From a virus, in the IMG/VR virus record IMGVR_UViG_3300032296_002019, positions 35,489 through 99,488 of that record: a stretch of DNA of 64,000 bases. One strand, 5' to 3'. The notes beneath the pieces were generated by a model. The model was not told where the DNA came from and searched no databases. It worked only from the letters and a program-made list of their open reading frames with translations. This document shows positions 2,784 through 5,261 of this stretch, piece after piece. Within the stretch, counting starts at the first letter, position 1, and every line of letters starts with the position of its first letter. The translations under genes and the position numbers were made by a program.

Positions 2784-2815
2784 GAGAAAGGGAGTAGAAA
2801 CTCCCCTTCGTTTTT
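2783..2815 (-). terminator. hairpin terminator downstream of tmRNA
   Basis: GGGAGT-TTCT-ACTCCC stem (2790-2805) flanked by pyrimidine/T tracts. Confidence 0.6.
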
Positions 2816-2839
2816 CCTAACCTTAACCTACCTTTTGAG

Positions 2840-3349
2840 TGGAGATGGTGGGATTCGAACCCACGTCTCCGAAAGAGACAATAATACTAACGTCTCACAT
2901 GCTTAGTACTAATTAGTGTTCGTCTTACGTTAGCTCAACGAGTCATTTCGTAAGCTGGTACGATACTAATCTGCACCGTAAGAGGCCAACCGTATAGATC
3001 GGGGTCCACCACCTTGTTTTATGACTACAAGGAAAACTTTTGTTAGTGTTTCGCCCCCTATATCACTAACTAAGACGCTCAAAGTCGGCTTTGACCATTA
3101 AGGGAGCCCTCAATCCACAGTCCTTATTTAACGAGTCGATCGTGAATACTCAGAGTAGTTCTGTTCCTAGGTTACTCACCCGACGCGGACTAGGCTGCTA
3201 CAGCGTAGTCGGCACCAACGAAGTCCATAAGATCTTCGAAGGTCATTGTTGACATTTCGTCATTTACTGTTTGGTATCTTCTAAGGCAGTATACCCAAAT
3301 GCCTGCATGTAGTATTACCTCTGCATCCGGATCGATACCGGTCATCCCC
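2840..3349 (-). ncRNA. ssrA: tmRNA, 510 nt
   Basis: 5' GGGGATG pairs with 3' CATCTCC(A) including the G3.U alanine determinant; T-arm GTGGGTTCGAATCCCAC; tag frame after TAAAT at 3261-3190 encodes DEMSTMTFEDLMDFVGADYAVAA*; CCA not encoded. Confidence 0.93.
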
Positions 3350-3352
3350 ATA

Positions 3353-3535
3353 TTACTTCAAACTAGAACTGTCCGGTGTGTTCTTACTGTCAGGATCCTC
3401 AGCAATTATAGAGGAACCTATAGTAGGCGTACCAGGTTCTTTTTTAGACTTCTTACCGCTAAAAGCGATATAAAGAACAGCAGCCCCTATAAGACAGAGA
3501 CCAACTACTAACAATACAAGATCTAATTTTTCCAT
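3353..3535 (-). CDS. small membrane-anchored protein between unknown RNA and tmRNA
   Basis: TM LVLLVVGLCLIGAAVLYIAF then KKSKK; stop codon ends 3 nt before the tmRNA 5' end. Confidence 0.65.
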   Translation of the reverse strand: MEKLDLVLLVVGLCLIGAAVLYIAFSGKKSKKEPGTPTIGSSIIAEDPDSKNTPDSSSLK

Positions 3536-3552: not shown

Positions 3553-3584
3553 AAAAAAATCTGGCGGGAATACTGATTACCCGC
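3553..3584 (-). terminator. intrinsic terminator closing the unknown RNA
   Basis: GCGGG-TAATCAGTATT-CCCGC followed by CAGA and TTTTTTT. Confidence 0.65.
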
Positions 3585-3860
3585 AACCCCTGGACGGACC
3601 CCTTTTCACCCATAGTCCACAAAGATGATCAGTCCTTGTGTTGAGACTAGCTGGATTGACTACCAGCAACGCCTGCGGAGATCAGTTGCAATTTCTTCGG
3701 CGTATCCAGAGCACTGTTGGGTTGCGCATTCTACCCTTAGTGATGGTGGTTTTAACTCATCCGTCTGTGATACCCAACTCAACAGCTTTTCAGCTATCTC
3801 GCCAGTGCTTTAGCAGCTCTCAACCGCTTATTCAGCCACAGTTTTTCTTAAAAGAACTTC
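3553..3860 (-). ncRNA. unidentified GC-rich multi-helix structured RNA (~290-305 nt)
   Basis: No coding-strand ORF of 60 aa or more; much more GC-rich than flanks; nested stems GTTGAGA/TCTCAAC, AGCACTG/CAGTGCT, TTGGGT/ACCCAA, AGCT-GAAA-AGCT, ACGCC/GGCGT, GCTGG/CCAGC, CACAAGGA/TCTTTGTG; own promoter motifs and terminator. Confidence 0.72.
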
Positions 3861-3862
3861 TA

Positions 3863-3880
3863 CAAATGTATATATAAATA
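3863..3880 (-). promoter_or_regulatory. tandem promoter motifs for the unknown RNA (TATTTATA and Bacteroidota -7 TACATTTG)
   Basis: TATTTATA at 3880-3873, TACATTTG at 3870-3863, then boxA-like AGTTCTTT. Confidence 0.55.
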
Positions 3881-4211: not shown

Positions 4212-4566
4212 ATTTCTCCCAAATTTTATAGTACCAATCTAATATAAATTTAAGATCTTCAATACTAGTTTGACCTTTTAATGAGTCAATATATTGATCG
4301 CATTTATTTATTTCATTATTTAGATTTCTAATATTGTCGCTTTTTATTGTCTTTCTATCAAAGAAGTCCTTCTTTTCTTTTAACTTTTCTTTTAGTATAG
4401 GGATTTTTTTATCAGCCTCATTCTTTAAAATCTCCTCTTTAGATTTATTAACCATAAAAGCAGTGAGACCAGAAGCTCTTCCAGAAAATCTAAGCAGAGA
4501 ATCAGCTTTATCTTTTACTTTTAAAAGATCATCAGCCATTTTATCTATGCCTACTTTCCTTTTCAT
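4201..4566 (-). CDS. hypothetical protein
   Basis: 121-aa ORF overlapping both neighbours. Confidence 0.6.
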   Translation of the reverse strand: MKRKVGIDKMADDLLKVKDKADSLLRFSGRASGLTAFMVNKSKEEILKNEADKKIPILKEKLKEKKDFFDRKTIKSDNIRNLNNEINKCDQYIDSLKGQTSIEDLKFILDWYYKIWEKYGF

Positions 4567-5261
4567 TTTTTATAGCGGACTATTAGATCATCTCCAAAAT
4601 CATCTTTCTTATCACTCTGATCATAAATATAGTTATTTTCTAGGTCAATAGATTTTTTTATGTCCTCCTCATGCTTTACAGGAAGATCAAGATCTATTTT
4701 TACAGGTCTAACGTCCGTATAGTCTTCCATAACTGACAGTTGCTTTTGGGTGAATACTTCCCCTACGCAAAGGAAATAACAGTTATAGCATAGAAACTCT
4801 ACGTTCTCTAATCTCCAGTTTTTCTTATTGCCATCTTTAAAATTCAAGATCAGCGGAACTTTATAATCTATTAATCTTTTTTCTTTAAACCCACATCTAG
4901 AACATTGTTCTGGTAGTATGCAATGCTCTATCATTTGGGTTTTTAATATCTTTATAGACACAAAGGTTTTGGGAACCCTCTCTTCCATTATATCGATTAT
5001 AGAAGCTTTATCGTGTCTTCTCTTTCCAAATTTAGGAATACCTTTAGCTGCTTGATTTTTATGTACCTCAAAGAGAGTCTTTCCCTCTTCATTTCGATAC
5101 ATGTTAGCATATTTTTTATAGGTCTTAAAAGACACTCCCAGGAACTTTGCAGCTGCTTTATTTGAAAGAGTCTCTCTCATGGCCCTTTCTATTGTCTGTC
5201 TTTCTATATTTAAGTCCTGGCCTCTATTTGACTTCTGCTTTCTAAAAGACTTTATCTGCAT
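4563..5261 (-). CDS. HTH plus degenerate HNH-like zinc-finger protein
   Basis: HTH-like SNKAAAKFLGVSFKTYKKYA; CSRC...LILNFKDGNKKNWRLENVEFLCYNCY with the usual His residues replaced. Confidence 0.7.
   Translation of the reverse strand: MQIKSFRKQKSNRGQDLNIERQTIERAMRETLSNKAAAKFLGVSFKTYKKYANMYRNEEGKTLFEVHKNQAAKGIPKFGKRRHDKASIIDIMEERVPKTFVSIKILKTQMIEHCILPEQCSRCGFKEKRLIDYKVPLILNFKDGNKKNWRLENVEFLCYNCYFLCVGEVFTQKQLSVMEDYTDVRPVKIDLDLPVKHEEDIKKSIDLENNYIYDQSDKKDDFGDDLIVRYKK

What the first reader, a model, noticed from the sequence alone, without database searches (positions are those of the whole stretch)
3553..3880. Unrecognised ~290-nt multi-helix RNA with its own promoter, boxA-like leader, terminator and a possible kissing loop
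Seen: a GC-rich island with no coding-strand ORF of 60 aa or more. Nested helices in + coordinates: 3818-3824/3640-3646, 3803-3809/3710-3716, 3772-3777/3717-3722, GAAA-tetraloop hairpin 3784-3795, 3699-3703/3669-3673, 3663-3667/3650-3654, and hairpin 3618-3640. ACUGAUC occurs twice (3686-3680 and 3633-3627), and the loop of the terminal GCGGG/CCCGC hairpin carries the complement AUCAGU (3577-3572). TATTTATA, TACATTTG and AGTTCTTT lie upstream. I cannot match it to RNase P, SRP, 6S, a group I/II intron or a riboswitch. Inference: either a new phage ncRNA/ribozyme, or a leader/antiterminator switch controlling read-through into the 60-aa membrane gene and tmRNA, which lack an obvious promoter of their own.
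Basis: partly seen in the sequence, partly recalled or inferred. Interest (0 to 1): 0.85.

Follow-up and report, generated by a model that had tools for sequence, protein, structure and literature searches.

The report
Enlarged manA-like RNA gene in phage
The flagged stretch is a real, evolutionarily maintained gene for a ~300-base folded RNA that large uncultured water phages keep among their tRNA and tmRNA genes. It is an enlarged, uncatalogued relative of the known manA RNA, and its loops look built for RNA-to-RNA self-assembly rather than for switching a neighbouring gene.

Summary
On the minus strand, about 3857-3553, lies a GC-rich, ORF-free, highly structured RNA. I collected 62 distinct full-length homologues from phage contigs and metagenomes. 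None came from 50,697 GenBank phage records, and none was confirmed in bacterial genomes.

On their alignment 93% of predicted pair cells are standard pairs, against 33-45% in slid controls. 49 of 86 pairs show changes on both sides.

Its three long-range helices are not conserved.

The RNA is not unmatched. It gives a sub-threshold, full-length Rfam hit to manA (RF01745, 29 bits, cut-off 55). It shares manA's 5' motif, closing stem, GNRA hairpin, 3' hairpin and loop-loop pairing. One domain is reduced and another is expanded by about 160 nt.

Relatives place the RNA directly behind tmRNA, inside tRNA arrays or before tRNAs, often with their own terminator. It is therefore a stand-alone stable-RNA gene, not a conserved leader switch.

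One hairpin loop holds a 6-nt palindrome (UGAUCA) that is replaced by another palindrome (UAGCUA) in nine relatives. A 2026 preprint reports manA RNA-only cages. Together these point to self-assembly, which is inferred and not shown.

Other agents of this scan found the same class on six other genomes.

The parts
3863..3880 (-). Promoter-like motifs: TATTTATA (3880-3873) and TACATTTG (3870-3863, fits the Bacteroidota -7 consensus TAnnTTTG)
   Evidence: Sequence read. TATATTTATATAC-type motifs recur 12-25 nt upstream of the RNA in about 22 of 62 homologues. The sigma-70 consensus scan finds no site on this strand here. Function is inferred.
3848..3857 (-). boxA-like leader GUUCUUUUAA, at or just after the likely transcription start
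   Evidence: The same G(U/C)UCUUU(A/G)A motif lies 16-25 nt before the RNA in L265, L255 and the L002/L012/L244 group. It lies 5-6 nt before the tmRNA 5' end in at least 17 loci where tmRNA comes first. Resemblance to E. coli rrn boxA is from my own knowledge. NusB/S10 binding is not tested.
3553..3849 (-). Mature RNA body, from the 5' strand of closing stem P1 to its 3' strand (about 297 nt)
   Evidence: nhmmer with the family profile covers it at E 1.5e-95. The manA covariance model aligns 3856-3554 end to end.
3839..3849 (-). P1 5' strand AAGAAAAACUG, pairing with 3563-3553 CAG-A-UUUUUUU
   Evidence: RNAduplex per sequence. The stem is kept with unrelated sequences in other subgroups: L249 UUUGAUUUGUGUUUG/CAAACAACAAAUCAA, L251 AAAAGUAAUG/CAUUACUUUU, L265 14 bp. 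It is weak in the L240/L279 groups.
3807..3840 (-). Domain A: invariant UGUGGCUGAAUAA, helix 3836-3834/3809-3807, hairpin 3828-3824/3816-3812 with invariant loop UUGAGAG, then UAA
   Evidence: Matches manA model positions 23-60. All 8 pairs covary and 100% of cells are paired (helices 2 and 3).
3774..3805 (-). Domain B: hairpin 3805-3801/3778-3774 plus 3798-3792/3787-3781, capped by GNRA tetraloop GAAA
   Evidence: 9 of 12 pairs have changes on both sides (helix 5). The loop is GAAA in 57 sequences and GCAA in 5.
3593..3765 (-). Expanded domain C: base helix 3765-3759/3599-3593, and an invariant core (GAGUUAAAACCAC 3757-3745; GGGUGAAAAGGGG about 3610-3598) carrying four arms
   Evidence: The base helix has 5 of 7 pairs with changes on both sides (helix 6). 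cmscan places a 162-nt insertion here relative to manA stem C. The core pairs never vary, so their pairing is untested.
3706..3746 (-). C arm 1: 3746-3744/3708-3706, 3742-3739/3715-3712, hairpin 3736-3733/3722-3719
   Evidence: Covaries: CACU/AGUG here, CUUA/UAAG in the L012 group, CGUUC/GGACG in the L257 group (helices 9-11).
3669..3703 (-). C arm 2: helix ACGCC/GGCGU (3703-3699/3673-3669) closing a 25-nt loop that carries the kissing strand ACUGAU (3686-3681)
Evidence: Helix: AU:42/CG:20, GC:41/CG:9, CG:42/GC:9 (helix 12).
3650..3667 (-). C arm 3: hairpin GCUGG/CCAGC with loop UAGUCAAU
   Evidence: 100% paired, 3 of 5 pairs with changes on both sides (helix 14).
3613..3649 (-). C arm 4: helix 3649-3645/3617-3613 and hairpin 3640-3633/3625-3618. 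Its 9-nt loop ACUGAUCAU holds the palindrome UGAUCA (3631-3626).
   Evidence: Helices 15 and 16 covary. The loop is (A)N-UGAUCA-U in 52 sequences, UAGCUA (also self-complementary) in 9, and CGAUCA in 1.
3564..3584 (-). Domain D: hairpin GCGGG/CCCGC with 11-nt loop UAAUCAGUAUU. AUCAGU (3577-3572) pairs with 3686-3681.
   Evidence: Matches manA model positions 161-182 almost letter for letter. Loop-loop pairs: CG33/AU14/GC1 and UA49/CG13 (helix 13). Own pairs beat shuffled partners 5000/5000, and 4945/5000 on the 13 unique haplotypes.
3353..3535 (-). 60-aa ORF with one hydrophobic segment, between the RNA and the tmRNA. Context only, not part of the RNA.
   Evidence: No PHROG match.
2837..3349 (-). 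Phage tmRNA, starting 4 nt after the ORF stop, so probably co-transcribed
   Evidence: Rfam RF00023, 59.6 bits, above cut-off. Not called by ARAGORN.
2786..2809 (-). Intrinsic-terminator-like hairpin ending the RNA-ORF-tmRNA unit
   Evidence: 10-bp stem, 5 G-C pairs, T-rich tail.

Best explanation
The region encodes a stand-alone stable non-coding RNA of about 300 nt. It is an enlarged member of the manA-like RNA lineage and is carried only by large uncultured aquatic myoviruses.

Shown:
- The RNA is conserved in at least 62 distinct phage or metagenome sequences.
- Its fold is maintained by compensatory changes.
- It has manA's order of elements. These are a closing stem P1, the UGUGRCNGAAUAA motif with hairpin A, a GNRA hairpin (B), a long arm (C), and a last hairpin (D) preceded by UUG with an 11-nt loop. 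The D loop pairs with a loop in C.
- Domain B is cut down to one hairpin. Domain C is expanded by about 160 nt into four arms around an invariant core.
- The gene always lies on the strand of, and next to, tmRNA and tRNA genes.

Inferred for this window:
- Transcription starts about 3857 from phage or Bacteroidota-type promoter motifs and passes a boxA-like leader.
- It continues through the RNA into the 60-aa ORF and the tmRNA, ending at the terminator at 2809-2786.
- The RNA is then released by processing.

Inferred function:
- Canonical manA RNAs were reported to form 10-mer and 60-mer RNA-only cages through intermolecular kissing loops and a GNRA-receptor contact.
- This RNA keeps a covarying loop-loop pair, an invariant GNRA loop and a palindromic 9-nt loop like a retroviral dimerisation site.
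- It therefore most likely self-associates into homo-oligomers.
- What such an assembly does in the infected cell is unknown.
For: - Homologues: 19 from an 18-mer scan, 10 more from a two-block pattern, 45 metagenome loci. All were confirmed by nhmmer at E 1e-61 to 1e-100.
- Covariation: 93.1% of cells paired against 33-45% slid. 49 of 86 pairs and 687 cells have changes on both sides. 0 of 500 shuffles reach this.
- manA link: the only Rfam hit, full model 1-192. Scores are 29.4 bits here, 33.5 in L002, 31.1 in L251, 20.1 in L241 and 19.8 in L250. The expansion falls inside manA stem C.
- P1 covaries between subgroups.
- Loop-loop pair.
- Palindrome UGAUCA replaced by UAGCUA.
- GNRA loop kept as GAAA or GCAA.
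- Context: tmRNA at most 60 nt upstream on the same strand in 19 loci. A tRNA lies 8-11 nt upstream in about 10 loci. tRNAs or terminator hairpins follow.
- Distribution: single copy in this genome. Absent from 50,697 GenBank phage records. The one bacterial-genome pattern match was a chance hit.
- manA cages: preprint 10.64898/2026.07.01.735769.
Against: - The manA score is about half the curated cut-off. The middle 200 nt have no counterpart in manA, so common descent is likely but not proven.
- Covariation cannot tell an intramolecular pseudoknot from an intermolecular kissing contact.
- The palindrome switch is probably a single lineage event. The chance that a replaced 4-nt centre stays self-complementary is about 1 in 16.
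- My mapping of the preprint's L8-L9' and L6 onto these loops is inferred from the Rfam consensus, not read from its figures.
- No expression data exist for this uncultured phage.
- In this window no separate terminator follows the RNA, so a local cis effect on the ORF and tmRNA is not excluded.
Confidence: 0.7

Rival explanations
1. It is a cis-acting leader or riboswitch. The folded RNA would decide, by termination or read-through at the last hairpin plus U7, whether the 60-aa ORF and the tmRNA downstream are transcribed.
For: - In this window no promoter-like site and no room for one lies between the RNA and the ORF or tmRNA. The tmRNA starts 4 nt after the ORF stop.
- The last hairpin is followed by U7.
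- Canonical manA was proposed as a cis-regulator in 5' UTRs (PMC2864571).
Against: - The arrangement is not conserved. In at least 19 relatives the RNA follows tmRNA. In others it is flanked by tRNAs 8-21 nt away on both sides.
- The U run is the 3' strand of the covarying closing stem P1.
- The hairpin is a conserved family element whether or not a terminator follows.
- The terminator stems that follow in relatives differ in sequence (GGGAGGUCA, GGGUAACC, AGCAACC). L256's AGCAACC stem has no G run that could pair with the CCC arm of the last hairpin, so I saw no conserved alternative pairing. This was checked by eye only.
Confidence: 0.1
2. It is a protein-binding stable RNA. As a decoy or scaffold it would capture a host or phage factor of translation or RNA processing, for example a partner of tmRNA or tRNA metabolism, and would act as a monomer.
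For: - Constant placement in tmRNA/tRNA operons.
- Long invariant single-stranded blocks such as GAGUUAAAACCAC and GGGUGAAAAGGGG, which could be protein or tertiary contact sites.
Against: - I noticed no recurring neighbouring protein gene in the loci inspected, but did not test this systematically. The flanking ORFs differ: an HNH endonuclease here and small membrane ORFs elsewhere.
- The palindromic loop and the manA precedent fit RNA-RNA contacts better.
Confidence: 0.15
3. It is a ribozyme, either self-cleaving or acting on the neighbouring tRNA/tmRNA precursors.
For: - Size, invariant core, pseudoknot-like contact and position in precursor transcripts.
Against: - No Rfam ribozyme, RNase P or intron model matches even at E up to 10.
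- manA relatives are not known to cleave.
- tRNA ends can be made by host RNase P and RNase Z.
Confidence: 0.04

Closest known systems
manA RNA motif (Rfam RF01745; Weinberg et al. 2010, PMC2864571; cryo-EM assemblies in bioRxiv 10.64898/2026.07.01.735769)
   Same: - Closing stem P1.
- GUG-R-C-N-GAAUAA followed by a hairpin and UAA.
- A GNRA-capped hairpin in the second domain.
- A long third arm.
- UUG plus a 5-bp last hairpin whose 11-nt loop UAnnCAGnAnU pairs with a loop of the third arm.
- Found in phages of aquatic bacteria.
   Different: - Scores 20-34 bits against a cut-off of 55.2. A canonical copy (L013) scores 80.5.
- About 300 nt instead of about 190.
- The three-hairpin second domain, with GUGGUG and ACCA loops, is reduced to one hairpin.
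- The third arm carries about 160 extra nt with four arms, an invariant core and a palindromic loop.
- It lies in tmRNA/tRNA operons with its own terminators, not in 5' UTRs of protein genes. 12 of 15 canonical loci have no tRNA nearby.
- It is carried by uncultured myoviruses whose nearest cultured relatives are Microcystis phage Mel-JY01 and Flavobacterium phages, not T4-like cyanophages.
Large RNA-only multimers ROOL, GOLLD and OLE, as cited in the same preprint (my knowledge of their phage and tRNA association is from memory)
   Same: - Ornate RNAs, often in phages or prophages near tRNA genes.
- They assemble through intermolecular loop contacts.
   Different: - No sequence or model match.
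- Those RNAs are 580-800 nt.
HIV-1 dimerisation initiation site hairpin (from my own knowledge)
   Same: - A 9-nt hairpin loop with a central 6-nt palindrome flanked by unpaired bases.
- Alternative palindromes occur in different lineages.
   Different: - Unrelated molecule.
- Here it is one arm of a 300-nt RNA, and dimerisation is untested.
T4 species 1 and 2 RNAs (rnaC, rnaD) in the T4 tRNA cluster (from my own knowledge)
   Same: - Stable small RNAs of unknown function, co-transcribed with phage tRNAs and cut out by processing.
   Different: - No sequence relation.
- Much smaller (about 120-140 nt).

Membership tests
manA RNA (RF01745) | Covariance-model score at or above the curated gathering score (55.2 bits) | tested here: not met
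   29.4 bits, E 1.3e-5 on 801 nt. Relatives score 19.8-33.5 bits. The canonical control L013 scores 80.5 bits.
manA RNA (RF01745) | 5' block GUGaCUGAAUAA followed by a hairpin, UAA, and a 2-3 bp return helix | tested here: met
   GUGGCUGAAUAA at 3839-3828, hairpin 3828-3812, UAA, helix 3836-3834/3809-3807. All pairs covary.
manA RNA (RF01745) | Closing stem joining the 5' end to the sequence just after the last hairpin | tested here: met
   Present with different sequences in the window, L265, the L249/L244 groups, L254, L268/L282 and the L251/L296 groups. Weak in the L240/L279 groups.
manA RNA (RF01745) | Second domain with three hairpins (loops GUGGUG, GNRA, uaACCA) | tested here: not met
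   Only one hairpin, with a GNRA loop, lies between domain A and the long arm.
manA RNA (RF01745) | Third arm is a simple hairpin with loop UaCUguA | tested here: not met
   The base helix aligns, but 162 nt replace the 15-nt top. The complementary strand ACUGAU sits in the loop of an inner arm.
manA RNA (RF01745) | Last hairpin: UUG, 5-bp stem, 11-nt loop UAnnCAGuAnU, complementary to the third-arm loop | tested here: met
   UUG-GCGGG-UAAUCAGUAUU-CCCGC at 3587-3564. The pairing covaries.
manA RNA (RF01745) | Position in the 5' UTR of a protein-coding gene | tested here: not met
   Relatives lie after tmRNA, between tRNAs or before tRNAs, mostly with a terminator hairpin. In this window a 60-aa ORF starts 18 nt downstream, but this is not conserved.
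manA RNA (RF01745) | Homo-oligomeric RNA-only assembly (decamer or 60-mer) | not testable with these tools
   Reported for canonical manA only. Here there is only indirect support from the loops.
Transcription-terminating riboswitch or leader | Conserved position upstream of the regulated gene, and an alternative pairing between sensor and terminator | tested here: not met
   The downstream gene varies or is absent. By eye, no conserved alternative pairing with the variable terminator stems.
boxA antitermination leader | GCUCUUUAACAA-like sequence near the 5' end of a stable-RNA operon, bound by NusB/S10 | tested here: inconclusive
   The G(U/C)UCUUU(A/G)A motif recurs at the operon 5' end whichever gene is first. 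Binding and antitermination are not testable here.

The most novel reading that the evidence does not exclude
Large aquatic phages express, together with their tmRNA and tRNAs, an enlarged manA-type RNA. It would self-assemble through a self-complementary loop, a covarying loop-loop pair and a GNRA contact into a defined RNA-only oligomer or cage inside the infected cell. This would be a phage-made RNA compartment or scaffold whose cargo or target lies in translation or RNA metabolism.
Probability: 0.3. Interest if true: 0.85.

Novelty: new variant of a known kind. Interest (0 to 1): 0.6.

Why it matters
manA has been an orphan 'riboswitch candidate' since 2010, and only in 2026 was it reported to build RNA-only cages. 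This enlarged class shows three things:
- The manA core is reused in a different genomic role, as a stand-alone gene in stable-RNA operons.
- Its assembly-type loops evolve by compensatory change.
- One interface module (the GUGGUG/ACCA loops) has apparently been swapped for a palindromic loop.

It gives a natural second test case for RNA self-assembly. It argues against a purely cis-regulatory reading of the manA lineage. It adds an uncatalogued family of at least 62 distinct sequences that current Rfam thresholds miss.

Tried and rejected
- Rfam at gathering thresholds gave only tmRNA.
- The single-sequence fold is not significant (z = -1.1).
- Exact 14-mer GTGGCTGAATAAGC in viral contigs gave more than 118 hits, all chance. 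None has the 3' motif within 450 nt.
- Synteny through the upstream 103-aa ORF found no relatives.
- Synteny through the 232-aa ORF found 80 loci, but it is a mobile HNH endonuclease and none carries the RNA.
- BLAST against GenBank phages found nothing.
- The genome contigs pattern scan gave one Saprospiraceae MAG hit, shown to be chance.
- What looked like a Shine-Dalgarno sequence after the RNA in the L240 group is the 5' arm of a terminator hairpin.
- An alternative helix UGUG/CACA (3840-3837/3769-3766) proposed by RNAalifold competes with P1. It has almost no covariation and fails in the L012 group. I prefer P1.
- A loop A contact with the junction UCAA (4 bp) shows only one-sided changes, so it is inconclusive. 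I considered pairing of loop A with the UAGUCAAU loop and rejected it, because the variants listed do not match up (read by eye).
- The D loop pairing with the second ACUGAU copy fits less well (4.92 against 5.23 of 6 positions) and fails for the AUCGUU haplotype.
- No covariance model was built. A model of about 300 positions exceeds the calibration limit, so nhmmer profiles were used instead.

Full report
**What is there**

The minus strand of 3880-3553 reads as follows:
- an AT-rich spacer with TATTTATA (3880-3873) and TACATTTG (3870-3863)
- GUUCUUUUAA (3857-3848)
- a GC-richer stretch of about 300 nt, ending in the hairpin GCGGG-UAAUCAGUAUU-CCCGC followed by CAGAUUUUUUU (to 3553)

GC is 0.41-0.45 here against 0.27-0.30 in the flanking genes. 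The RNA strand has no ORF of 60 aa or more in the interval.

Downstream on the same strand come:
- a 60-aa ORF (3535-3353)
- a tmRNA (3349-2837; Rfam 59.6 bits; missed by ARAGORN)
- a terminator-like hairpin (2809-2786)

The window is the last 64 kb of a 99.5-kb IMG/VR virus record estimated 57% complete. It is a myovirus with tail sheath, GroEL, RNR, DnaB and DNA polymerase genes. Its nearest cultured relatives by tail sheath are Microcystis phage Mel-JY01 (40% identity) and Flavobacterium phages.

**Is it more than chance?**

Folding the single sequence says little (z = -1.1). Comparative data decide the question.

- A scan for the last-hairpin motif found three full-length relatives among canonical manA loci.
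- Conserved blocks from that alignment then retrieved more: 22 loci with an 18-mer, 29 viral loci with a two-block pattern and 45 metagenome loci.
- nhmmer confirmed them at E 1e-61 to 1e-100, giving 62 distinct full-length sequences.
- Pairwise identity over the core ranges from 54% to 100%, with a median of 71%.

On their alignment (A4) the consensus structure has these statistics:
- 93.1% standard pairs, against 33-45% when partners are slid by 1-3 columns
- 49 of 86 pairs and 687 cells with changes on both sides
- no shuffle out of 500 reaches this

This is a real structured RNA.

Supported by covariation:
- the GAAA-tetraloop hairpin
- 3703-3699/3673-3669
- 3667-3663/3654-3650
- the 3640-3618 hairpin
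- the terminal hairpin

Not supported:
- The three long-range helices are perfect in this window.
- The latter two show no matching complementarity in the L012-group rows of the alignments.
- All three overlap helices that covary.
- At most UUGA/UCAA of the first could be a tertiary contact. It shows only one-sided changes.

The proposed kissing loop is supported:
- The strand NNNGAU in the 25-nt loop of arm 3703/3669 and the loop of the last hairpin change together.
- The observed combinations are ACUGAU/AUCAGU, GACGAU/AUCGUU, UCUGAU/AUCAGA, CAUGAU/AUCAUU and UGUGAU/AUCACU.
- The pair counts are CG33/AU14/GC1 and UA49/CG13.
- Own partners beat shuffled partners in 5000 of 5000 trials, and in 4945 of 5000 on the 13 unique haplotypes.
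- The second ACUGAUC copy is not the partner. It fits less well and does not track the AUCGUU loops.

**What it is related to**

At permissive thresholds the only meaningful Rfam match is manA (RF01745), aligned over the whole model 1-192.
- The score is 29.4 bits, E 1.3e-5 for the 801 nt searched, against a cut-off of 55.2.
- The same full-length, sub-threshold match recurs in divergent subgroups: L002 33.5, L251 31.1, L241 20.1 and L250 19.8 bits. A canonical manA (L013) scores 80.5.

Shared with manA:
- the 5' block GUGRCNGAAUAA-hairpin-UAA
- a closing stem
- a GNRA hairpin
- the base of the third arm
- UUG plus the last hairpin with its 11-nt loop
- complementarity between that loop and a loop of the third arm (manA consensus UaCUguA with uacAguA)

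Different from manA:
- manA's three-hairpin second domain is reduced to one hairpin.
- The top of the third arm is replaced by about 160 nt.
- These 160 nt form four arms around invariant blocks GAGUUAAAACCAC and GGGUGAAAAGGGG.

The closing stem P1 covaries between subgroups with unrelated sequences. In this window it uses AAGAAAAACUG (3849-3839) and CAG-A-UUUUUUU (3563-3553). The U run is therefore part of the fold rather than simply a terminator tail.

I file this as a structural variant related to manA, not as a member of the curated family.

**Context**

The RNA always lies on the same strand as stable-RNA genes:
- In 19 of the 62 loci a tmRNA ends at most 60 nt upstream. In several it ends 8-16 nt upstream, so the RNA starts just after the tmRNA CCA end.
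- In about 10 loci a tRNA ends 8-11 nt upstream.
- In the L002/L012/L244 group and L265 a tRNA starts 15-25 nt downstream.
- Most of the others have a strong hairpin plus U run right after the RNA, sometimes abutting the next tRNA.

By contrast, 12 of 15 canonical manA loci have no tRNA in the fetched DNA.

Distribution:
- It is single copy in this phage.
- It is absent from 50,697 GenBank phage records.
- The one pattern match in 185,579 species genomes was a chance hit.

The window is unusual only in gene order, with the RNA first, then a small ORF, then tmRNA.

A boxA-like motif G(U/C)UCUUU(A/G)A sits at the 5' end of the operon whichever gene is first. It lies before the RNA here, in L265, in L255 and in the L002 group. 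It lies 5-6 nt before the tmRNA in at least 17 other loci. Any antitermination function is inferred.

**How it most likely works**

The conserved position argues against a leader or riboswitch as the family's function, and for a trans-acting stable RNA.

A 2026 preprint reports that canonical manA RNAs form decamers and a 60-subunit cage. These are held together by intermolecular kissing loops (L5-L7', L8-L9', L3-L8') and a GNRA-receptor contact. Counting hairpins in the Rfam consensus puts the GNRA loop at L6, and the third-arm and last-hairpin loops at L8 and L9. This mapping is my inference.

The enlarged RNA keeps these elements:
- the L8-L9-type pair, which covaries
- the GNRA loop (GAAA in 57 sequences, GCAA in 5)

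It lacks the L5 and L7 hairpins. In their place it has a 9-nt loop whose central six bases are self-complementary. The six bases are UGAUCA in 52 sequences, UAGCUA in 9 and CGAUCA in 1. Going from UGAUCA to UAGCUA changes four bases and keeps the palindrome. This is what selection for loop-loop self-pairing would give.

I therefore think homo-oligomerisation is the most likely mode of action, at roughly 45%. The biological role of such an assembly is unknown.

What is shown: conservation, fold, loop complementarity and context.
What is inferred: processing, assembly and function.

**Other notes of this scan**

After I had reached the manA reading, a look-up showed that other agents had reported the same enlarged manA-like class on six other genomes. 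Their claims that I re-tested hold here: real RNA, sub-threshold manA hit, tmRNA/tRNA context, phage-only distribution.

The preprint turned up in my own literature search, made in the same turn as that look-up, whose notes also name it.

This report adds:
- the palindromic-loop switch
- the per-haplotype test of the kissing pair
- the covarying P1 stem, which reinterprets the U run
- the operon-level boxA-like motif

**Verdict**

This is a genuine, conserved phage RNA gene and a new structural and contextual variant of the manA kind. It is not a categorically new class, and it is not a shown ribozyme or switch.

Noticed in passing
window 3848-3857 (-); L229, L241, L274, L279, L288, L292, L267, L300 and others, upstream of tmRNA: A boxA-like motif G(U/C)UCUUU(A/G)A(C/A)A marks the 5' end of the stable-RNA operon. 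It sits before this RNA when the RNA is first, and 5-6 nt before the tmRNA 5' GGGG when tmRNA is first.
   Followed up: partly
window 3871-3880 (-); 5' flanks of about 22 of 62 loci in alignment A4; after many terminators: A recurrent TATATTTATATAC-type motif, a candidate phage promoter shared across this phage group.
   Followed up: no
window 2837-3349 (-): The phage tmRNA is 513 nt long. Rfam finds it (59.6 bits) but ARAGORN does not. Relatives have 385-396-nt tmRNAs with long acidic tags ending in YAVAA, YALAA or ATFA.
   Followed up: partly
L019:512-1000: A manA-type last-hairpin motif (977-993) lies about 150 nt after a tRNA-Thr/Ser/Arg array (512-830). Its size and Rfam score were not checked. 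If it is a canonical-size manA, this context would be intermediate between 5' UTR manA and the enlarged class.
   Followed up: no
L235:2770-2802; L229, L259, L278, L303: Terminator-like hairpins plus U runs after the RNA end 1-3 nt before the next tRNA gene. They may serve as 3' protective hairpins after RNase P cleavage rather than as full stops.
   Followed up: no
window 3353-3535 (-); L250, L243, L247 downstream ORFs: Small single-pass membrane ORFs (60-90 aa) follow the RNA in several loci. They are not obviously homologous to each other and have no PHROG match.
   Followed up: no
window 4563-5261 (-): A 232-aa HNH endonuclease ORF lies upstream. It has 80 relatives in viral contigs in unrelated contexts, so it is probably mobile.
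   Followed up: partly
L014:10941-11374 (-): A viral contig with a canonical manA-type motif also carries a tmRNA with a long basic tag (GAKKHVRALGFKNRIAAKRFGYKSRKLALAA), about 9 kb away.
   Followed up: no
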